Made by a program: the position numbers and the translations under genes | Source of the DNA: Candidatus Latescibacterota bacterium | GTDB lineage: Bacteria > Latescibacterota > UBA2968 > UBA8231 | Length of the DNA: 64,000 nucleotides | Assembly (NCBI GenBank): GCA_965215195.1 | Contig: CBDCDC010000002.1 | Span: forward strand, 4,177,693 to 4,241,692 | Reading direction: 5' to 3' | Shown: positions 1,727-9,603 of the stretch, one piece after another | Layout: every line of letters begins with the position of its first letter | How positions within the stretch are numbered: the stretch's first letter is position 1 | Notes under the pieces: model-generated | Database searches by the model: none | Told to the model about the DNA's origin: nothing | What the model saw: the letters and a program-made list of their open reading frames with translations, nothing else

Positions 1727-3334
1727 ATGACCGACCCAATCCTGCTCACCGACGAGCAGATGCGCGAGTTTATCGTCAATGGCTATCTGGTTTTTGAGCC
1801 GACCGTGCCCGCAGGGACGCACGAAGCGTGCTATGAGCGGCTCAACCAGATCATCGACTCGGAGCCTAATCCGGGCAATAACATCCTGCCGCGCGTACCC
1901 GCCATGCGCCACGTGCTCAACTCGCCCGAGGTGCGCGGCGCACTCATCAGCGTCTTAGGCCCGAACTTTTTGGAGCATCCGCACCGCTACTGCCATCCCC
2001 TCAAGCCAGTGGAGGAACCCGTGCCCGCGGCCGAGGCCGAAGAGAGGCTGCGCCGCAACTGCCATCAGGACGGGTACACGCCCATGGGCCATCCGCGCCA
2101 GCACTATCTGCGCTATGCGCGAATCATGTACTATCCGCAGGATTCGCCGGTCGAGTTGGGGCCGACGCACGTGATCCCGGGCACCCAGTTCAATCGCGGA
2201 CTGACCGACGAGGATCGGGCGCGCGCCTTGCCATTGGCCGGCCGGGCCGGCACGGTGTCCCTGACGCACTTTGACGTGGGCCACGCGGCCGGCGTCAGCC
2301 TGCTACCGGTGCATCGGCACATGATCAAGTTCATCTACATGCGAGCCGCCGAGCCGACGGCCCCGACCTGGGACTGCAAAAGCATGCACTGGCAGAAGCC
2401 CCACTGGAGTGAGGTTCCCTACGATCTGGAACTGGCTTGGGCGCACACTTGGGACTGGCTATGCGGCAAGCGGGATCGCTACGATAGCTGCCCACAGGCC
2501 ACTGGAGATGTGGCGGCACTCATCGCCCAGCTCGATCTAGACGTGGATTTAGCGCAGCGGCTTGCGGCGGCACAGCGATTGGCCGGATTCGGCGTTGATG
2601 CGGCTGCAGCCGTGCCAGTGCTCGTGGAGTGCTTGGGCACCGATCACCAAGCCATGCGCACGGCAGCGACCTACGCGCTAGGCGCGATCGGCGAGCCCGC
2701 GGTCGCGTCGCTGGCCAAAGCCTTGCGCACCGCAGGTCGCGAGGCCGACCAACACGAGGCCCCGCCCGTTTGGAGCGAGGGAGCGACTAACATGGAGGAC
2801 GCGGCCCAAGCACTGGCGGCCGTTGGCGAGCCGGCGGTTGAAGCGCTCTGTGCGCTGTTGGACGACGAAAGCGAGTGGACTCAAGTCAACGCCGCCTTTG
2901 CCCTCGGCGAAATGGATTCGCACGCGGAGGCAGCAGTCCCGGCGCTGACGCGGACCCTTGAAGAGGGCTCGCATCGCTTGGTGCGCACGGCGCTCGTCGC
3001 GCTGGGCAATATCGCGCAAGGCGTACCAGTAGAAGCCTTGGGGCGCATGCTCTCGGCCGATCACCCAAATTGGCAGGAGGAAGCTGGCCGCCGCTGGGTG
3101 CCCCGCGACCAAGTGCGGACCAACGCCGCAATAGCCTGCGCCCAGCTCGGCCCGGCCGCCGCTCCGTTAGAAGCCCAGCTTTTCAGGGCACTCGACGACC
3201 CCTGCGGCCACGTAGGCGCATTCGCGCTCAGTGCCCTGCAGCAGATTGGCTCGCCCACAGCCACGCAGGCCGCGATGGATTATCTCTATTCGCAGCGCTG
3301 GGACGCCGCTATTGACGGCGAGCGGCAGTTTTGA
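1727..3334 (+). CDS. PhyH-family Fe(II)/2-oxoglutarate dioxygenase fused to C-terminal HEAT (PBS-lyase type) repeats
   Basis: N-terminus LLTDEQMREFIVNGYLVFEP and an HxD motif (NCHQDGY) are typical of phytanoyl-CoA dioxygenase-like proteins. The C-terminal half carries repeated AVPxLxxxLxxxxxxxRxxAxxALGxIG units. SD site AAAGGAG lies upstream of the ATG. Confidence 0.7.
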   Translation: MTDPILLTDEQMREFIVNGYLVFEPTVPAGTHEACYERLNQIIDSEPNPGNNILPRVPAMRHVLNSPEVRGALISVLGPNFLEHPHRYCHPLKPVEEPVPAAEAEERLRRNCHQDGYTPMGHPRQHYLRYARIMYYPQDSPVELGPTHVIPGTQFNRGLTDEDRARALPLAGRAGTVSLTHFDVGHAAGVSLLPVHRHMIKFIYMRAAEPTAPTWDCKSMHWQKPHWSEVPYDLELAWAHTWDWLCGKRDRYDSCPQATGDVAALIAQLDLDVDLAQRLAAAQRLAGFGVDAAAAVPVLVECLGTDHQAMRTAATYALGAIGEPAVASLAKALRTAGREADQHEAPPVWSEGATNMEDAAQALAAVGEPAVEALCALLDDESEWTQVNAAFALGEMDSHAEAAVPALTRTLEEGSHRLVRTALVALGNIAQGVPVEALGRMLSADHPNWQEEAGRRWVPRDQVRTNAAIACAQLGPAAAPLEAQLFRALDDPCGHVGAFALSALQQIGSPTATQAAMDYLYSQRWDAAIDGERQF

Positions 3335-3430
3335 GGGGATGAGTTTGAGTGCATCGGCAATGGTCTTCTTCCCTAGAGAACGGTCGATAAAGAAAACAAG
3401 TGGATCAGGCTGCTCGGGTGTATAACTCAC
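3335..3430 (-). pseudogene. Truncated PIN-like (DUF5615-type) toxin remnant downstream of the DUF433 gene
   Basis: From a GTG overlapping the DUF433 3' end, the frame reads ..PLVFFIDRSLGKKTIADALKLIP. This resembles the N-terminal strand-helix of DUF5615/Mut7-C-like PIN proteins that pair with DUF433. After about 30 codons the frame runs antisense into the PhyH gene, so only the N-terminus survives. Confidence 0.3.
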
Positions 3431-4163
3431 AGCGGATCGCTTCTTCGATATCGAGCGTCGGGCGATCATAGTCGTCCGCTAATGCACTGATTGCCTCCCC
3501 GGCCTTGTAGCGTTCGGCAATAATAGCCGTAGGAATCCCAGTGCCTGCGAGCACCGGGCGACCAAAAGATATGCGAGGATCAATGACAATTGCCTTGGGT
3601 TCTTCCATGAGTTGTTGGCTTGGGCGCTTGCGCGTGAAGGGGTATAGCCTCCGGGCATAACCAGCCGAATCCCTATCAATGCGCCGCAGATGCGCCTGCA
3701 ACAGGTTCCTAAGTACCAGTTGTCCAGCTTGAGAGACATTTATGAGTTGACCGTATTCTTCGACAAAGAGGTCCAAGCCGTCGGTTTCGATCTTGTGGTA
3801 TGCGAGAGGGTGATCGGACGTTAGTTCTTCTTTGATGAAATCGATAGCAATCCTAGCCTTGTGCAGCGATATGCAATGGTCGCGGCGAATGGCATCGAGC
3901 ATGTGGATTTCGACCAGATTGATAAAGGATAGAAGGTTCTGGCTATCGTCTGGTAGGTCGATCACAGGCTGGAAGAACTGGTCTCCTCCGCTAGTAGGAT
4001 ATTTGCGGCCTCGCACCCAAGAGCGAAGCGTAGTCACGGGAATGCGCAGGTAGTGGGCAGCCTCGGGAAAGCTGTAACAGGGCATTGCGCGTATGTCATC
4101 TGTTGCGATAGATCTCATGCCATAAGGTCCTTTAGCCGAGAGACGAATGCGCTGATAGACCAT
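3405..4163 (-). CDS. DUF433-domain protein with an N-terminal MerR-like HTH (antitoxin-like)
   Basis: C-terminus IDPRISFGRPVLAGTGIPTAIIAERYKAGEAISALADDYDRPTLDIEEAI matches the DUF433 signature. The N-terminus has the HTH-like YSFPEAAHYLRIPVTTLRSWVR. The start could instead be the internal MRSIATDD. Confidence 0.7.
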   Translation of the reverse strand: MVYQRIRLSAKGPYGMRSIATDDIRAMPCYSFPEAAHYLRIPVTTLRSWVRGRKYPTSGGDQFFQPVIDLPDDSQNLLSFINLVEIHMLDAIRRDHCISLHKARIAIDFIKEELTSDHPLAYHKIETDGLDLFVEEYGQLINVSQAGQLVLRNLLQAHLRRIDRDSAGYARRLYPFTRKRPSQQLMEEPKAIVIDPRISFGRPVLAGTGIPTAIIAERYKAGEAISALADDYDRPTLDIEEAIRCELYTRAA

Positions 4164-4172
4164 TAGTTTGCA

Positions 4173-5078
4173 CTAATGGTCTCTAGGCATTACGCCCTCT
4201 TTCATAGGTTTAAGTGTTCCATCACGCAAGTACATAGCGTATCTCTGGAATTGCCACTCTAGGGAGAAAATTTGTTCTGCCCAATCTCTCAGAGGCTGAC
4301 TGCACGCATTATTGCGAGCAAGAGCCTGTAGGGTTGGAATTTGTTCACCAATTTGTTCAGCTATTTCGTTATAAAAACTGCTTCTTGCTTGTTCTGGAAA
4401 GTGACTACGCTCACGAATACGAAACTGAACTGGATATTTTTGCTTGATTATATTGACCCAATACAGCAGTTTTCGGTTGTTTACGACGTATGGATCCACC
4501 CCTATGAAGCTAACATGTTGGGTTGACAACACACCGTTGGGCACTGTACAGCTAATCTCTGGATCTTGAGTCTTTGTCTTTTGTCTGCCAAATTCCTCAG
4601 CCAACTGATCTCGGAACTTGATATAAGTGCTTTTAGGAGTGCCAGAGTTGCTTGAATACTTGAAGAGACGATTAATATCTTCAAGTGTCTTGAGTGCTTC
4701 ACGTTCGCGGTTGAAGCCTTTCGCTCCTGCTGACCAGAGACATACTGCAACATCGGAGGCTTCCAATAGAGCCGAAGGACGTAGTTGAAATAGTATGGGC
4801 CCGTAGGGATTTGGAACACTTTTTGATCCCTTCGCAAAAGAGCTACCAAAGTCTGACAAGTTTACGAAAACTTTATCCCACATATTGTTTTCACGGTCAA
4901 TAGCGTCGGTCTGAAATGGCGTAAATTCTAATTGTCTACTTTCAAGCAAAGCACGTGAGGGAATTCCTCCAAGACTAATATACGACTCAAAGTCAATTAA
5001 TTGACAGGCATGATAGAGGAATACTTGACGCTCTTCAAATAAATCCACCAAATCTTGAATGTCGTTACCGGTTATCAT
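4173..5078 (-). CDS. Hypothetical protein (301 aa); N-terminal half possibly ADP-ribosyltransferase-like
   Basis: Long ORF in the AT-rich islet, 9 nt upstream of the DUF433 gene. Three segments resemble the H-Y-E ART layout: VFLYHACQ, NPYGPILFQL, and PEISCTV...HVSFIGVD. No family could be assigned by eye. Confidence 0.55.
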   Translation of the reverse strand: MITGNDIQDLVDLFEERQVFLYHACQLIDFESYISLGGIPSRALLESRQLEFTPFQTDAIDRENNMWDKVFVNLSDFGSSFAKGSKSVPNPYGPILFQLRPSALLEASDVAVCLWSAGAKGFNREREALKTLEDINRLFKYSSNSGTPKSTYIKFRDQLAEEFGRQKTKTQDPEISCTVPNGVLSTQHVSFIGVDPYVVNNRKLLYWVNIIKQKYPVQFRIRERSHFPEQARSSFYNEIAEQIGEQIPTLQALARNNACSQPLRDWAEQIFSLEWQFQRYAMYLRDGTLKPMKEGVMPRDH

Positions 5079-5098
5079 GAGATTAGCCTTTCCAACAG

Positions 5099-6037
5099 TT
5101 AAAACAGATTAAGTTGTTTGCTTTCAGGGCCTTTTGTGGGAACTTTATCGCCTATGTCCTGTTCAAGACGAGTTGCTTCCTCTTTTAGAAGCTCAACAAA
5201 TATAGGTTGCGCTTTTGCCCAAATTGCCTCGGCTTCGTCAAATGAAAGTCCTACTTTACCTAGTCTCCACTCTACCTCTTTATCCCACCATCGGGAGGGT
5301 TTGTGTTTTTTTGTGACATGACCGCTTTCACAATAGAAACTAATCCAATTCAGTTGCCTCCAAGAAAATCGAGTCTCCTTTGCAACTTTGTGAAGAGCGG
5401 CTTTTCCTTGAGGGGTGTGTTTATCTAATGCAACCCAAAACGGAAAATTCATTTCACTATTAGTATTAGGATCTGTGTACAGCTCGGGTAATCCATCCCT
5501 AATAGCTAAATATGCTGTTGCTTGTATAAAGGCCCTATCCCAAGGCCATCCGCCCTTTCGATAAACTTTTTCAGCCTGTTCGACGAGTCTAGTTTCAGTT
5601 TCGCGCGTATTTGAACATTGAGAAATTGCCCATTCCCAATATGTGTTAGCATCTGTAATCGCCTCACAAACCCGTTGAATGGTATCATCTTCTTCACAGC
5701 CTGTCAGTACTGACCTATCGCCTTCTGAAAGTGCATATGCCAGAGATCCGAGTCCAGCTGCGTCTTTGAACTTTACAGAGTTGGCAAGTTCGCTGAGAAT
5801 CTCTACCATTGCCACCTGTTCCTCGTGCTTCTTAGGTGGCCTCCATTTAACCATGAGAGGCCAGCATTCTTCAGCGATTATCACACCGATTCGTTGCCTG
5901 AGCCACCTGATGTCCCCTATTTCATAAAGGTGATTGACAACCTTAGTAACAAGGTCAGAGTTACCACGGCGCACTGCTTTTTGAAGTAGAGAACGACAAC
6001 GTTGATCCGTATTCGAATTAACCTTGCGCATGTACAT
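5099..6037 (-). CDS. Hypothetical helical protein (312 aa) with an MgsA/RarA C-terminal-lid-like segment
   Basis: Start chosen at MYMRKV, which has GAAGGA 7 nt upstream; the ORF could extend to 6229. SLLQKAVRRGNSDLVTKVV..WLRQRIGVIIAEECW parallels the RarA lid motif HKSxRGSDxDAALYW...RRLxxxAxEDIG. No AAA+ domain is present. Confidence 0.5.
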   Translation of the reverse strand: MYMRKVNSNTDQRCRSLLQKAVRRGNSDLVTKVVNHLYEIGDIRWLRQRIGVIIAEECWPLMVKWRPPKKHEEQVAMVEILSELANSVKFKDAAGLGSLAYALSEGDRSVLTGCEEDDTIQRVCEAITDANTYWEWAISQCSNTRETETRLVEQAEKVYRKGGWPWDRAFIQATAYLAIRDGLPELYTDPNTNSEMNFPFWVALDKHTPQGKAALHKVAKETRFSWRQLNWISFYCESGHVTKKHKPSRWWDKEVEWRLGKVGLSFDEAEAIWAKAQPIFVELLKEEATRLEQDIGDKVPTKGPESKQLNLF

Positions 6038-6236
6038 CAGTTGGTCCTTCAATTGAAGTTTGATTAAGCTTGACTCTCTGTTTTTCCCAACGTTGTGCGT
6101 CTGGTCGTGATCGGTAAACGGCCAAGGAGGTGTTCTGTGTACCAACGCGTCATTGAAGATAACAACGAAACCAGCCCCGTTACAATTTGTCGAACGCAAT
6201 CCATTCCATCCTCTCTGTGGACAAAACATGGGTAAT

Positions 6237-6288
6237 GCCCATTAGATAGCGCAAGCATCGCTCAGGGCGTCTTGCGTACGCCTTGGAG
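6237..6288. repeat. Direct repeat, copy A: duplicate of the TetR gene 3' end plus its downstream 24 nt
   Basis: Hand alignment to 7540-7590 gives 48 of 51 identical positions plus one 1-nt indel. The minus strand still reads LQGVRKTP-stop. Confidence 0.85.
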
Positions 6289-6321
6289 TATTGGGGGTTG
6301 CAAACCCGTCTAGCCCTACTC

Positions 6322-7425
6322 TTAACGATTGGGGACTAAGGGGCTGCCTTCGGCTTTCTTGCGCTCTATTTCCGCATGGGTTTTGTATAGCTGGAGGTAG
6401 CGGTGTGCAGTCGGCGGATGCGTACCTCTAAAGTTGTTTGACGCAACGGGATTGCGTTCCGCCATGCGTCGCCAGAAGTCGGCCGCCCCCTCGGTATCAA
6501 AGCCAGCCCGGGCCATCAGATAGAGTCCAACGTAGTCGGCTTCTTGCTCAAAGGCTTGGCTAAAGGCGATTGCACCAGCCTCCATTGTGCTTTGTGTGAT
6601 GGTGCCAAAGGTCGGTACGCCCGTTACCGCCCATTCAACAGCCGCTCCCATGATTCCGCCGAGTAGAGCATTCGTTTTCTTTTTATCGACATGTCCCTCG
6701 GTGCAGTGAGCCAACTCGTGGGCGATGACCAAGGCCAATTCACTATCTGTCGCAAAATCAAGCATTCCTGCTGTTAGGACAATATTTTCACCGTCTGTAT
6801 AGGCATTAACATCTTGTCCCTCCGAATGATATACCAAGTGAGAGCAAATCGGCTCCGCCTTTATAGGGATTTCGATAATCGTATCTTTGTTTGCTGCAAC
6901 CTTGCGCTGGACCGTAAAGATCGTCGGCTCCTCTGACGCATGACGTTTAAGCAGCTTGTGAAGATTGCTTTGGTACTCAAGGTCGTATTCGTTCCAGTGG
7001 GGCCATATTGTCTTAATCGGCTCTCCCCCGATCCTCGTAATCTGGTCTCCGGGCTGAAGACCAGACTGTGCGGCTGGGGAGCCGGCTACAAGTTCCACGA
7101 CTATCGGTTGCTCCCGCAACTTCTCTATGCCATAATAGCGCAACCTCAAGAGACGATCCCAAGGCTTCATTTTCTGCGTACTCGCCGAGTCTAAGTAGCT
7201 GAATCCGAATTGGAAGCGAGTCTTTTTGCCACATAGCGCGGCGTTGGCTCGCATGATAGACGGCGCAAGGCGCGCTATTCGCTCTTGCCGCTGCATGGAC
7301 AATCGGAAGATTCTTTCCAATTGATGGAGCATTTCCTCGGTGACTTCAGAAGAAGAAAGCTCAGGGATTTTGTACCTAGGAGCACATGAGCCAAGAATAA
7401 GAAGAATCACGAATAGGGTAGGCAT
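6322..7425 (-). CDS. M48-family zinc metallopeptidase with an internal PDZ domain; lipoprotein
   Basis: HExxH (IAHELAHCTEGH) and a downstream EQEADYVGLYLMARAGFD are typical of M48. The PDZ-like segment is VELVAGSPAAQSGLQPGDQITRIGGEPI. Start set at MPTLFVILLILGSC, which carries a lipobox. Confidence 0.8.
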   Translation of the reverse strand: MPTLFVILLILGSCAPRYKIPELSSSEVTEEMLHQLERIFRLSMQRQERIARLAPSIMRANAALCGKKTRFQFGFSYLDSASTQKMKPWDRLLRLRYYGIEKLREQPIVVELVAGSPAAQSGLQPGDQITRIGGEPIKTIWPHWNEYDLEYQSNLHKLLKRHASEEPTIFTVQRKVAANKDTIIEIPIKAEPICSHLVYHSEGQDVNAYTDGENIVLTAGMLDFATDSELALVIAHELAHCTEGHVDKKKTNALLGGIMGAAVEWAVTGVPTFGTITQSTMEAGAIAFSQAFEQEADYVGLYLMARAGFDTEGAADFWRRMAERNPVASNNFRGTHPPTAHRYLQLYKTHAEIERKKAEGSPLVPNR

Positions 7426-7539
7426 ATAGAGGCACCTTTCATCCTTCTTGGTTGTGCTGCAAGTCGAGTGGGAGGCTGGTCCTCTGCGCCGCCGTGAGCC
7501 AGCGCATTTTGAGCTGCAGCGCAGTTCAAGATAGTTTTG

Positions 7540-7590
7540 GCCCATAGATAGCGCAAGCGTCGCTCAGGGCGTCTTACGCACGCCTTGGAG
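7540..7590. repeat. Direct repeat, copy B: the authentic 3' end of the TetR gene plus downstream sequence
   Basis: Covers the last 8 codons and stop of the TetR CDS and 24 nt beyond. Pairs with 6237-6288. Confidence 0.85.
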
Positions 7591-8142
7591 GAAGATGCGC
7601 ATGATGGTATCGACCATGGCCTCTACGCTCAGGCCCTTTGCGTGGATCATCACCGAGCGCACCATGCCGCGGAGGATAGCAGCTTCGACCTGCGGGTGCT
7701 CAACCGAGAAGACGCCCTGTTCAATGCCATTTTGCAGGACCGTCTCGATCGCGGCGCGCTGGATGCGCCGTTCCTCGTGCCAGCGCCTGCGGTTTTCGCC
7801 CTTGCCGCTCCCGCTCTTGCCGTCCTCGTGCGACATCAAGCGGAAGAAGAAGCGGTTCTGGTTGAAGAAGGAGACAATGGCGTGGACCATCCGGCGGAGT
7901 TCCTCTTCCGGGTCCTGCTGGCGATTGGCCTTGCGCTGAAGCTGCTCGTTGAGCCGCCGGATGCCTTCAAAGACCACCGCAAAGTACAGCTCTTCTTTGT
8001 CGGCAAAGTACGTGTAGATCGTCCCCTTGCCGACGCCGGCTTGGTGGGCAATATCGTCCATGAGCACTTCGTCGAAGCGCTTGGCCGAAAAGAGGCGGGC
8101 CGCCTCTTCAAGGATGAGCTTTCTGCGGTTAGTTCTGGCCAT
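7564..8142 (-). CDS. TetR/AcrR-family transcriptional regulator
   Basis: N-terminal HTH ILEEAARLFSAKRFDEVLMDDIAHQAGVGKGTIYTYFADKEELY. Start set at MARTNRRK. Confidence 0.85.
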   Translation of the reverse strand: MARTNRRKLILEEAARLFSAKRFDEVLMDDIAHQAGVGKGTIYTYFADKEELYFAVVFEGIRRLNEQLQRKANRQQDPEEELRRMVHAIVSFFNQNRFFFRLMSHEDGKSGSGKGENRRRWHEERRIQRAAIETVLQNGIEQGVFSVEHPQVEAAILRGMVRSVMIHAKGLSVEAMVDTIMRIFLQGVRKTP

Positions 8143-8397
8143 AGTATGAAATTTTACGCTGCATCCACCGCAGCGTACACCTTGCCTCTTTTGGTCAACC
8201 AAGCCACATCTTCCCGTGCGGCGTACTCCTTGATCTCCCGCAGGAGTTGAATCGTTGCAGATTCATAGCACGGCTCACTCGGGTCATCGGCTGGGACGAC
8301 CATCACAAACTTAGTCGCGTTCGCTTGATGCGCTGTCCGGGAATGCGCATGGCTTAATCTCCGTTAAAAAAATGTACAGTTACGAGCTTGGCAGGGC

Positions 8398-9030
8398 TTA
8401 TTCCTCAAGAAACACATACCGCTCCAGTCGGGCTAGTTCGTGGTCGTCGACGTATTTTCCGATTTCTCGTCTCCATTGCGCCATGCTCTTATAGGGTCGG
8501 TATTCCTCAAACTCGTGCGCCATGCGCTTGCCAACCCCTGGGATCGTGAGGAAATCCGCCTCGCTGGCGCTGTTGAGTTCGAGCGGCACGAAGACGTACT
8601 GCTCCAGTCGGGCTAGTTCGTGGTCGTCGACGTATTTTCCGATTTCTCGTCTCCATTGCGCCATGCTCTTATAGGGTCGGTATTCCTCAAACTCGTGCGC
8701 CATGCGCTTGCCAACCCCCGGCACTAGTTTCATTTCGGCGTCGCTGGCGGTGTTGAGGTTGATCGGCAGGAAGAGCTTGGCGTACAGTTCGGCTCGGACC
8801 GAGTCCGCCAAAGTCGAATCCAAATAGGCGTTGAAGGCTTCCATGCCGATAAAAGGCCGTTGCGCCACAATCCCCTCGACCAACGCCGAATCGAGTTGCG
8901 CTAGGGCCAATAGCTGTTCGCCGCCGGCTCGGTTGGGATTGAGGACTGTTTCGTTTTTTCCCACCTGCCCTTGGGCGCTGCTGCCGTAGAGACAGACGGC
9001 TAAGATCACGGCTAAAACGACTTGCTGCAT
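8398..9030 (-). CDS. Secreted helix-hairpin-helix (ComEA-like) repeat protein
   Basis: Signal peptide MQQVVLAVILAVCLYGSSAQG. Three LNxASxxxxxxxPGVG HhH-type units are present, and the last two 60-aa units are nearly identical. Confidence 0.65.
   Translation of the reverse strand: MQQVVLAVILAVCLYGSSAQGQVGKNETVLNPNRAGGEQLLALAQLDSALVEGIVAQRPFIGMEAFNAYLDSTLADSVRAELYAKLFLPINLNTASDAEMKLVPGVGKRMAHEFEEYRPYKSMAQWRREIGKYVDDHELARLEQYVFVPLELNSASEADFLTIPGVGKRMAHEFEEYRPYKSMAQWRREIGKYVDDHELARLERYVFLEE
8421..8718. repeat. Tandem in-frame duplication, period 180 bp, inside the ComEA-like gene
   Basis: 8421-8538 and 8601-8718 are identical over 118 bp by direct reading. Confidence 0.9.
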
Positions 9031-9474: not shown

Positions 9475-9486
9475 GAAAGTTTACAC

Positions 9487-9603
9487 CTATGACTCCAATT
9501 GAGCCGTGCCGTTCAATGTTTGGTTGAAGAAACTAATTGTGCGTTCCCAAGCCAGTTTGGCTGCTGCTTCGTCTCGCTTGGGGGTGATGCGGTGGGCGCG
9601 CTC
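9487..9603 (-). pseudogene. C-terminal remnant (about 38 codons) of a dienelactone-hydrolase-like gene
   Basis: The frame directly after the DUF1854 stop reads ERAHRITPKRDEAAAKLAWERTISFFNQTLNGTAQLES-stop. This resembles DLH C-termini (..aaxdAWxRtlxFFxxxL). No upstream body is present. Confidence 0.35.

What the first reader, a model, noticed from the sequence alone, without database searches (positions are those of the whole stretch)
3335..7590. AT-richer accessory islet wedged between the PhyH-HEAT gene and a TetR gene
Base composition drops visibly between about 3335 and 7540. It is most extreme over 4173-6230 and intermediate over the M48 gene.

All five reading frames in the islet are on the minus strand with small gaps. 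They are the M48/PDZ peptidase, a 312-aa unknown, a 301-aa unknown, DUF433, and a PIN-like stub.

The left edge falls exactly at the PhyH stop codon and cuts the PIN-like gene. The right side contains a duplicated TetR 3' end. No integrase, transposase or tRNA target is present, so the acquisition mechanism is not obvious.
Basis: seen in the sequence. Interest (0 to 1): 0.6.

Follow-up and report, generated by a model that had tools for sequence, protein, structure and literature searches.

The report
Mosaic accessory islet in a recombination hotspot
A 4.2-kb low-GC insert between two core genes of a sponge-type Latescibacterota genome is a patchwork of three separately acquired gene modules that come and go among close relatives, and one module is an undescribed gene pair whose second protein has the fold of the DNA-modifying toxin DarT.

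Summary
GC is 0.615 ± 0.026 in background 1-kb windows. It falls to 0.52 over the PIN stub and DUF433 gene, 0.435 over 4164-6235, and 0.52 over the M48 unit. All 15 lowest-GC 1-kb windows of the 64-kb window lie in the islet.

The islet fills a spacer of about 28 nt between the convergent core genes PhyH-HEAT and TetR. Relatives at about 90% identity carry an empty spacer, other cargo, or subsets of this cargo. Contigs from the same metagenomes also show the empty site and a DUF433|TetR form.

There are three layers.
1. A DUF433 antitoxin gene with its PIN_10 toxin cut to 42 of 151 codons. Relatives show at least five different cut points.
2. A 2.1-kb cassette: a RarA/MgsA-lid-like helical protein followed by a DarT-like ADP-ribosyltransferase-fold protein. 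The pair stays together in Poribacteria and Ktedonobacteria. Neither protein matches Pfam, NCBIfam, PADLOC or PHROGs.
3. An M48/PDZ lipoprotein gene bracketed by a 53-nt duplication of the TetR 3' end. In other strains it sits at the opposite end of the islet.

There is no integrase, transposase or tRNA. The most likely mechanism is allele exchange by homologous recombination through the conserved flanks and the duplicated TetR end, plus local deletions. The islet itself is ordinary; the cassette is the new item.

The parts
3335..3340 (.). GGGGAT, the retained left part of the ancestral spacer of about 28 nt between the PhyH stop (3332-3334) and the TetR stop.
   Evidence: In the empty-site relatives L005/8/9/10 the sequence reads TGA GGGGATT.TGAGATAGCGCGAGCGTCGC TCA. 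Homology to all relatives ends at 3338-3340.
3344..3469 (-). Stub of a PIN_10 (PF18478) toxin gene, with 42 of 151 codons left. The open frame then runs on as antisense of PhyH to 3167.
   Evidence: tblastn with the full-length PIN of L032 matches residues 1-42 at 3469-3344. L032 PIN matches PF18478 at E 8.5e-20. Other relatives are cut at residues 23, 35-37, 40 and 46.
3405..4118 (-). DUF433 plus HTH_66 protein, the antitoxin-type partner of the PIN gene. It is most likely 237 aa starting at the ATG at 4118; the ORF is open to 4163.
   Evidence: Pfam PF04255 E 1.7e-10 and PF21321 E 3.4e-6. Relatives' products are 235-237 aa and start M(G/R)SIATDD. GC 0.53, GC3 0.56.
4146..6235 (-). Low-GC two-gene cassette, the core of the composition drop. 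It is a discrete unit of about 2.1 kb that also occurs at an unrelated locus elsewhere.
   Evidence: GC 0.435, z -7.0. Read joint 4145->7562. Relatives that have DUF433 but no cassette lose homology at 4143-4148. L069 carries window 4166-6093 at 84% nt at another locus, beside an MTase-HNH gene and a DDE_3 transposase.
4173..5078 (-). u301: a 301-aa protein with an ADP-ribosyltransferase fold closest to DarT. It is the proposed toxin or effector.
   Evidence: AF2 pLDDT 94.8. Foldseek against PDB: DarT1 8baq E 1e-5, Thermus DarT 7omv/7omy E 1.6e-3 to 1.8e-3, SopF. H23, R17, S41, D58, D61, K69, N73 and R124 are invariant; E174 is near-invariant at the start of a strand. No Pfam, NCBIfam, PADLOC or PHROGs match.
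5099..6037 (-). u312: a 312-aa all-helical protein. Its N-terminal ~100 residues resemble the MgsA/RarA C-terminal lid; the rest has no solved relative. It is the proposed antitoxin or regulator.
   Evidence: AF2 pLDDT 90.7. PDB profile hits 8g28/2qw6 (AAA ATPase, MgsA type) at E 0.14-0.25 over residues 4-55. Foldseek 2r9g_E prob 0.82 and 3pvs_A. Full-length fold matches to uncharacterised giant-virus proteins at E 1.7e-4, TM about 0.5, one of them named RarA. 34 invariant columns.
6121..6230 (-). Remnant of the 3' end of a small PhyH-family gene, carried at the upstream end of the cassette. It is a scar of the donor locus and explains the spurious 376-aa ORF.
   Evidence: 16/26 residues identical to the 264-aa PhyH of L069, E 5e-8. 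blastn matches L069 839-947 at 75%.
6236..6288 (-). DR1: a non-functional copy of the TetR 3' end (last 8 codons plus stop, then 26 nt of spacer).
   Evidence: Direct-repeat family D2, 89% identical to 7538-7590. In L002 and L070 the homologous sequence is the real TetR end, joined to the cassette. The same M48-plus-remnant junction occurs in L065/L066/L067.
6289..7537 (-). M48 unit: a 33-nt spacer, the M48/PDZ lipoprotein gene (6322-7425, 367 aa from the ATG at 7425) and a 112-nt upstream region.
   Evidence: Pfam PF01435 E 1.9e-22 and PDZ_6 E 1.7e-8. The HELAH motif and the signal MPTLFVILLILGSC can be read in the translation. Absent from all 57 loci fetched (L001-L057). Closest homologues are 74-75% aa. 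GC 0.52.
7538..7590 (-). DR2: the functional TetR 3' end plus spacer.
7564..8142 (-). TetR-family regulator, a core gene and the right anchor of the hotspot. All cargo lies downstream of it in the same orientation.
   Evidence: Pfam TetR_N E 1.5e-14. Conserved at 79-95% aa in 25 of the loci, and present at about 86-88% nt in L067 and L070.

Best explanation
Region 3341-7537 is horizontally acquired, strain-variable cargo. It sits in a recombination hotspot: the spacer of about 28 nt between two convergent core genes of sponge-type Latescibacterota.

It is a nested mosaic of three modules.
1. A DUF433-PIN_10 toxin-antitoxin pair. It is widespread at this site in relatives. Here the toxin is reduced to 42 codons by a deletion that runs up to the PhyH spacer.
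2. A 2.1-kb cassette of much lower GC, inserted between DUF433 and the TetR end. It encodes a RarA-lid-like helical protein followed by a DarT-like ADP-ribosyltransferase-fold protein. I infer that this is a two-gene toxin-antitoxin or defence-type module. The second protein would transfer ADP-ribose from NAD+ to a nucleic-acid target, and the first would neutralise or reverse that.
3. An M48/PDZ envelope lipoprotein protease gene that travels with a dead copy of the TetR 3' end.

No module carries a recombinase. I infer that whole islet alleles and single modules are exchanged between co-occurring lineages by homologous recombination. The anchors would be the conserved PhyH and TetR flanks and the 53-nt TetR-end repeat. 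Local illegitimate deletions then trim the cargo, toxin genes above all.

Shown: composition, boundaries, presence or absence in relatives and in the same samples, the folds, and conservation of the gene pair. Inferred: the biochemical activity, the toxin-antitoxin relationship, and the recombination route.
For: Foreign composition in three strata.

Empty site with an intact spacer in L005, L008, L009 and L010.

Haplotype series:
- L032: DUF433-PIN only.
- L070: TetR-u312-u301-DUF433-stub-PhyH.
- L002: the same, plus other cargo.
- L067/68: TetR-u312-u301-DUF433-PIN-M48-remnant-PhyH.
- Window: TetR-M48-remnant-u312-u301-DUF433-stub-PhyH.

On trees of either flank, the 4 cassette carriers need 4 changes and the 6 empty sites need 6 changes, the maximum possible. 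Each carrier has a cassette-free sister; three of these pairings are well supported (win+L011 99, L070+L019 99-100, L002+L003 97-99) and L067's is weaker (82-84).

Contigs from the same metagenome runs carry the joints 3342->7562 (empty site, depth 76 against about 350-450 in X5) and 4145->7562 (DUF433|TetR) beside the full form.

The PIN gene is cut at five or more different codons in relatives.

The M48-remnant junction is homologous in the window and in L065/66/67, although M48 lies at opposite ends of the islet.

Cassette: the pair is adjacent and in the same order at all eight distinct genomic places examined (L058-60, L061/62, L063, L064, L067/68, L069, L070, L002), and in the window itself. 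It has lower GC than its flanks in most of them. The two proteins diverge at equal rates. u301 has a DarT-like fold.
Against: No recombination event was observed directly.

Cassette divergence between carriers (88-90% nt) is about the same as flank divergence. Ancient presence with many losses is therefore not formally excluded.

The DarT similarity is seen only at the fold level. There is no HMM match to DUF4433 or to the PADLOC DarT models, and no superposition of catalytic residues was possible.

In Ktedonobacteria the pair sits stably between trmD and ftsK in more than 12 similar places. That looks more like a housekeeping gene pair than a defence island.

There are no plasmid, phage or IMG/VR copies.
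Confidence: 0.8

Rival explanations
1. The islet, or at least the M48 unit, is a small integrative element. It would be mobilised by a site-specific recombinase encoded elsewhere in the genome. The TetR 3' end would be attB, and the two 53-nt copies would be attL and attR.
For: The 53-nt imperfect direct repeat brackets M48 exactly. In L067/68 a TetR-end remnant next to PhyH and the real TetR end bracket the whole five-gene island. Three different cargo types (the M48 unit, the cassette and DUF433) all join the spacer at the same point...GCGCTATCT(A)ATG|. The functional gene end is restored, as with elements that target gene 3' ends.
Against: There is no recombinase in the islet or in the conserved flanks. 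The M48 unit was found only at this locus, and its closest homologues are all here. No circular or M48-only excision joint appeared in the contigs of four runs, although contigs drop rare forms. The DUF433|TetR and cassette|TetR junctions in relatives show no second repeat copy.
Confidence: 0.2
2. The block is ancestral to the clade and has simply been lost many times. The low GC would reflect function (AT-rich toxin-antitoxin or defence genes) rather than import.
For: Cassette and DUF433 divergence between carriers (88-92% nt) is similar to core divergence. Deletions are clearly frequent here, as shown by the PIN cut points.
Against: GC3 is 0.36-0.38 against 0.72-0.81 in core genes of the same strand and region. 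The same cassette occurs at 84% nt at an unrelated locus (L069), and at 64-65% aa in Poribacteria. Empty sites have an intact, scar-free spacer. The cassette carries a fragment of a foreign PhyH gene. Cargo requires the maximal number of state changes on both flank trees.
Confidence: 0.07
3. The DR1-M48-DR2 arrangement is a chimeric assembly of two co-existing strain haplotypes.
For: The samples contain several haplotypes of this site. In other strains M48 lies at the other end of the islet.
Against: A 3,529-nt contig of run X4 spans 4093-7621 with zero differences. Contigs of X3, X5 and X6 reproduce each junction. The window's contig is a 4.86-Mb assembly.
Confidence: 0.03

Closest known systems
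Chromosomal integration hotspots or 'islets' between conserved core genes (accessory-gene hotspots in bacterial pangenomes; from my own knowledge of that literature, not checked here)
   Same: The cargo is variable and compositionally foreign. It is rich in toxin-antitoxin and defence-type genes and sits between two conserved core genes. Empty and differently filled alleles occur among relatives. No integrase is present.
   Different: The hotspot is very small, a 28-nt spacer between convergent genes. All cargo is co-oriented downstream of the TetR gene. One module is linked to a duplicated gene end and occupies either end of the islet in different strains.
DarTG toxin-antitoxin and anti-phage systems (DarT2-DarG macrodomain; DarT1-NADAR; PMC5179494, PMC11543638)
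   Same: It is a two-gene operon. One product has the DarT-type ART fold (best PDB match DarT1 8baq). It has a conserved His in strand 1, conserved acidic and basic residues where DarT1 has R35, D49, R52 and D54, and a near-invariant Glu at the start of a late strand. The module is mobile, with GC lower than its host.
   Different: There is no sequence-level match to DUF4433 or to the PADLOC DarT models. The protein is about 90 residues longer, with an extra helical C-terminal part. The partner is neither a macrodomain nor a NADAR, but an all-helical protein with a RarA/MgsA-lid-like N-terminus. Gene order is partner first. No activity data exist.
DUF433-PIN (PIN_10/DUF5615-type) type II toxin-antitoxin pairs
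   Same: A DUF433/HTH protein is encoded immediately upstream of, and overlapping, a PIN-like gene. The pair is intact in L012 and L032.
   Different: Here the toxin gene is truncated to 42 codons, which leaves an orphan antitoxin gene.
M48 lipoprotein metalloproteases of the BepA/LoiP/YcaL group
   Same: M48 domain with HExxH, a lipoprotein signal peptide, and a predicted envelope location.
   Different: It carries a PDZ domain in place of the TPR domain of BepA. It scores far below the NCBIfam equivalog cut-offs (68.9 against 570 bits). It is accessory and strain-specific here.

Membership tests
Classical genomic island / integrative element | Own integrase or recombinase gene | tested here: not met
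   Pfam scans of all islet ORFs and neighbours show no recombinase or transposase domain. The flanks are conserved core genes in relatives.
Classical genomic island / integrative element | Insertion at a tRNA/tmRNA gene or at a gene 3' end with flanking direct repeats | tested here: inconclusive
   No tRNA lies within 44 kb. A 53-nt repeat of the TetR 3' end brackets only the M48 unit here and the whole island in L067. No repeat is seen at the other module junctions.
Classical genomic island / integrative element | Atypical composition and variable presence among relatives | tested here: met
Integron cassette array | IntI integrase and attI next to the array, with attC sites between cassettes | tested here: not met
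   The gene upstream of the array is a TetR regulator, not IntI. No recurring imperfect inverted repeats appear at cassette junctions. Only the co-orientation of the cargo resembles an integron.
DarT (DUF4433, PF14487) ADP-ribosyltransferases | Sequence match to the family model | tested here: not met
   No Pfam hit for u301 or any of 59 family members at E<=1. No PADLOC hit.
DarT (DUF4433, PF14487) ADP-ribosyltransferases | DarT-type ART fold | tested here: met
   Foldseek: 8baq E 1e-5 (TM to target 0.63), 7omu/7omy/7omv/7omw/7omx E 1e-3 to 7e-3, prob 0.99-1.0. The model is confident, pLDDT 94.8.
DarT (DUF4433, PF14487) ADP-ribosyltransferases | Catalytic glutamate and NAD+-binding residues in place (E152, R52, D54, N104 in DarT1; PMC11543638) | tested here: inconclusive
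   H23 is invariant in strand 1. R42, D58, D61 and F77 are invariant or near-invariant at DarT1-like spacing. E174 is >=90% conserved (Asp in one subclade) at the start of strand 174-178. No coordinate superposition was possible.
DarTG toxin-antitoxin system | Antitoxin is an ADP-ribose hydrolase (macrodomain DarG or NADAR) | tested here: not met
   u312 has no macro or NADAR match in Pfam, PADLOC or PDB fold search.
DarTG toxin-antitoxin system | Toxicity of the transferase and rescue by the partner | not testable with these tools
   This needs expression in a laboratory strain.
DUF433-PIN_10 toxin-antitoxin pair | Intact DUF433 gene followed by an intact PIN_10 gene | tested here: not met
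   DUF433 is intact. PIN is reduced to residues 1-42 of 151.
Peptidase family M48 | M48 domain above the Pfam threshold, with an HExxH zinc motif | tested here: met
   PF01435 80.5 bits against a cut-off of 20.3. HELAH is present in the translation.

The most novel reading that the evidence does not exclude
The u312-u301 cassette (4146-6235) would be a new class of ADP-ribosylation-based toxin-antitoxin or defence module. u301 would be a DarT-like enzyme that modifies DNA or RNA. It would be controlled by a new kind of partner: a RarA/MgsA-lid-like helical protein, possibly a new ADP-ribosyl hydrolase or a replication-fork-associated regulator. That partner also has full-length structural relatives in giant viruses.
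Probability: 0.4. Interest if true: 0.7.

Novelty: new variant of a known kind. Interest (0 to 1): 0.5.

Why it matters
The islet as such is a textbook accessory hotspot, but it is unusually well resolved. More than 25 related genomes and contigs from the same samples show module-by-module gain, loss, truncation and reordering in a 28-nt spacer, without any dedicated mobility gene. That makes it a useful natural example of how uncultured sponge symbionts shuffle toxin-antitoxin and defence-type genes.

The practical gain is the low-GC core. It is a conserved, cross-phylum gene pair with no family assignment, and its second protein has the DarT fold. If it is active, it would add a third partner type to DNA/RNA ADP-ribosylation systems, after the macrodomain and NADAR. 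It would also give a function to about 490 clusters of unannotated proteins.

Tried and rejected
I could not search the whole genome for recombinases or for further copies of the modules.
- PADLOC, NCBIfam, Pfam and PHROGs gave nothing for u301 or u312.
- A PDB sequence-profile search with the u301 family found only coiled-coil noise, even at E 10.
- tblastn of u301 against plasmids and phages found nothing, and an IMG/VR scan with the family alignment found nothing.
- Long family members were scanned for informative fusions. Only one has a known domain, HTH_40.
- The promoter and terminator scan of 3000-8500 found no more than chance.
- The search for RNA runs returned only runs of unknown type, so expression could not be judged.
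- I considered an integron-like array, because the cargo is co-oriented and closely packed. I rejected it for lack of IntI and attC.
- I considered a 7-nt target-site duplication (CCATTAG at 4162 and 6240) for the cassette. L002 has CCCATAG at the right junction, so it is at best microhomology.
- I considered that L070 or L016 share the window's PIN|PhyH junction. Alignment shows different breakpoints, so these are independent deletions.


Full report
**Observation**

A sliding GC profile and a computed test confirm the drop. Background 1-kb windows of the 64-kb window have GC 0.615 ± 0.026 (minimum 0.536).
- 3335-4163 has 0.524 (z -3.5).
- 4164-6235 has 0.435 (z -7.0).
- 6289-7537 has 0.521 (z -3.6).

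Tetranucleotide distance from the background gives z 8 to 15. Third-codon GC is 0.72-0.81 in the neighbouring core genes. It is 0.56 in DUF433, 0.38 and 0.36 in the two unknowns, and 0.55 in M48. The 15 lowest-GC 1-kb windows of the whole window all lie here.

- M48+PDZ;
- a 312-aa unknown;
- a 301-aa unknown;
- DUF433/HTH_66;
- a PIN-like stub that reads on as antisense of PhyH.

A 53-nt direct repeat lies at 6236-6288 and 7538-7590 (47/53 identical). It duplicates the last 27 nt of TetR plus 26 nt of spacer and brackets the M48 gene. No integrase or transposase domain was found. The only tRNA genes are at 52 kb.

**Organism and empty site**

A scan of species-representative genomes with the PhyH-HEAT protein returned about 25 Latescibacterota MAGs (some labelled Gemmatimonadota) at 90-95% aa. 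They share the same flanks: NAD synthase-PhyH on one side and TetR-ComEA-like-membrane protein on the other. Many record names are of the sponge-metagenome type.

In L005, L008, L009 and L010 the PhyH stop and the TetR stop are separated by about 28 nt: TGA GGGGATT.TGAGATAGCGCGAGCGTCGC TCA. In the window the cargo lies between GGGGAT (3335-3340) and the ...ATAGATAGCG part of that spacer.

**Three layers**

*Layer 1: the DUF433-PIN pair.* It lies next to TetR in L012, L015, L016, L019, L021, L032, L039 and L041. The full-length partner (151 aa in L032) is a PIN_10 protein, PF18478, E 8.5e-20. It is complete only in L012 and L032. Elsewhere it is cut at residue 23, 35-37, 40, 42 (the window) or 46, or it is frameshifted. 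Alignment shows that the breakpoints of L016, L070 and the window differ. The toxin gene has therefore been destroyed independently many times, while the DUF433 gene persists.

*Layer 2: the low-GC cassette.* Window 3345-6288 is collinear with L002 at 90% nt, ending at L002's real TetR end. L070 has TetR-u312-u301-DUF433-stub-PhyH. Relatives with DUF433 but without the cassette lose homology at 4143-4148. The unit of about 2.1 kb from roughly 4146 to 6235 is thus an insertion between DUF433 and the TetR end.

The same unit (window 4166-6093, 84% nt) lies at an unrelated locus in L069, beside an MTase-HNH gene and a DDE_3 transposase. Its upstream end (6121-6230) is a fragment of a small PhyH-family gene: 16/26 aa match the L069 PhyH, E 5e-8. 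This is a scar of a donor locus, and it explains the spurious 376-aa ORF.

*Layer 3: the M48 unit (6289-7537).* It has no counterpart in any of the 57 loci from the genome scan. Its closest homologues are only 74-75% aa. They lie on L065, L066 and L067/68, at the same chromosomal site but at the PhyH end of the islet. The order in L067 is TetR-u312-u301-DUF433-PIN(138 aa)-M48-TetR remnant-spacer-PhyH.

The junction between M48 and the dead TetR end is homologous in all of them. M48 and its remnant are therefore one old unit. In the window that unit sits between TetR and the cassette instead. The gene most likely starts at the ATG at 7425, giving a lipoprotein signal (MPTLFVILLILGSC). It carries HELAH and a PDZ domain.

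**Population evidence**

Logan contigs of four runs from one study reproduce the window. One contig spans 4093-7621 without a difference, which rules out a chimeric DR1-M48-DR2. These runs were found by their shared words with this stretch and may include the sample the window was assembled from.

The same runs also contain contigs with other forms:
- 3342 joined to 7562, the empty site (depth 76 against about 350-450 in X5);
- 4145 joined to 7562, DUF433 next to TetR (X4, X6);
- loose ends at 4145 and 6340.

The contig graph breaks exactly at the module boundaries. These variants were laid at >=90% likeness, so they may be co-occurring close lineages rather than strains of one clone.

**Cargo against flank phylogeny**

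I built trees from 2.2 kb of either flank. On both, the four cassette carriers (window, L002, L067, L070) need four state changes and the six empty or near-empty sites need six, the maximum possible. Each carrier has a sister without the cassette. Three of these pairings are well supported: window+L011 at 99, L070+L019 at 99-100, and L002+L003 at 97-99. L067's pairing with L009 or L015 has weaker support, 82-84.

The window's closest right-flank relative, L011, carries entirely different cargo: a 121/134-aa gene pair. Other cargo at this site in relatives includes LRR lipoproteins, a 1,133-aa PD40-repeat protein and two further unannotated small gene pairs.

**Mechanism of acquisition (inferred)**

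Nothing in the islet or its flanks encodes a recombinase. Five patterns stand out:
- scar-free empty alleles;
- cargo uncoupled from flank phylogeny;
- alternative alleles in the same samples;
- many different deletion breakpoints;
- one module tied to a 53-nt (originally about 75-nt) copy of the TetR end.

This combination is what exchange of alleles by homologous recombination would produce. The anchors would be PhyH, TetR and the TetR-end repeat, with illegitimate deletions on top.

One concrete route to the window needs only homologous crossovers. The recipient would be TetR-M48-remnant-PhyH. The donor would be TetR-cassette-DUF433-stub-PhyH. One crossover would fall in the remnant or TetR end and the other in PhyH. 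I cannot order the events.

The origin of the first duplication is open. It could be homology-facilitated illegitimate recombination or a site-specific event. A trans-acting recombinase that uses the TetR end as attB remains the main rival, at about 0.2.

**The cassette proteins**

Both proteins belong to sizeable families with no annotation. The word-indexed search gave 260 and 1,166 hits. For u301 the exhaustive search found 488 clusters at 50% identity. There are no matches in Pfam, NCBIfam, PADLOC or PHROGs.

In every context examined the two genes are adjacent and in the same order, u312 first. These are Ktedonobacteria (L058-60), Poribacteria (L061/62), L063/64 and the Latescibacterota loci. 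The two proteins diverge by the same amount, for example 48.7% and 49.3% or 63.9% and 65.0% identity to the window's proteins. In most contexts the pair has lower GC than its flanks.

*u301.* The model is confident (pLDDT 94.8). Its best PDB matches are the DNA ADP-ribosyltransferases DarT1 (8baq, E 1e-5) and Thermus DarT, followed by the ART effector SopF. Invariant residues include H23 in strand 1, and R42, D58, D61 and F77. Their spacing resembles that of R35, D49, R52/D54 and F72 in DarT1. A near-invariant E174 opens a late strand. The DarT1 residues are taken from PMC11543638. This is a resemblance in pattern, not a superposition.

*u312.* It is all-helical (pLDDT 90.7). Its first ~100 residues resemble the C-terminal lid of MgsA/RarA. 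Over its full length it matches uncharacterised giant-virus proteins, one of them annotated RarA, at E 1.7e-4 and TM about 0.5. It is as conserved as u301 and has 34 invariant columns, many of them polar. That fits an enzyme or a specific binding partner better than a fast-evolving plug-type antitoxin.

*My reading.* This is a DarTG-like two-gene module with a new partner type, at about 0.4-0.5.

*Evidence against this reading.*
- There is no sequence-level link to DarT.
- The chromosomal position in Ktedonobacteria is stable, between trmD and ftsK.
- There are no plasmid, phage or IMG/VR copies.

**Verdict**

The islet is an ordinary kind of feature, an accessory hotspot, resolved here into three independently moving modules and a plausible recombination-based history. 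The new element is the DarT-fold and RarA-lid-like gene pair at its core.

Noticed in passing
window 8143-8397: The spacer between TetR and the ComEA-like gene holds a second decayed toxin-antitoxin module. It contains the last 12 codons of a DUF4258 toxin gene (..AKLVTVHFFNGD*) followed by a broken copy of its 75-aa partner. Both genes are intact in L067 and L070.
   Followed up: partly
window 9475-9603 and relatives (L001, L003, L005, L008, L015, L020, L030, L032): The gap between the 146-aa membrane protein gene and DUF1854 is about 130 nt here, but 1-6 kb in many relatives. It is therefore a second variable hotspot, about 2 kb from the first. Window 9512-9573 matches the 3' end of a dienelactone-hydrolase gene of L067/L070 at 87-90%, so it is a gene stub.
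   Followed up: partly
L001-L003, L006, L007, L011, L013, L015, L019, L030, L039, L041 (between PhyH and the PIN/TetR side): A recurrent plus-strand gene pair (about 139-163 aa, MGQIHVARNT..., then 134 aa, MQAGNYGIEEIPD...) with GC 0.45-0.50 and no Pfam match. It is another unannotated two-gene module that uses the same hotspot.
   Followed up: partly
L002, L006, L019, L039 and L012 (cargo at the same hotspot): Eukaryote-like repeat proteins occur as hotspot cargo: LRR lipoproteins of 369-506 aa whose repeat number varies between relatives, and a 1,133-aa PD40/dockerin protein.
   Followed up: partly
window 8411-8541 and 8591-8721: A 131-nt in-frame tandem duplication (97% identical, period 180) lies inside the ComEA-like helix-hairpin-helix gene. 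It is also present in relatives, where the two copies are about 80-82% identical.
   Followed up: no
L063 7488-12942: In one unrelated genome the u312-u301 pair lies next to an HTH-Peptidase_M78 pair, a thymidylate-kinase/HMUDK_hel protein, a TCAD9-like protein and a MazG protein. This is a neighbourhood of the nucleotide-modification or defence type.
   Followed up: no
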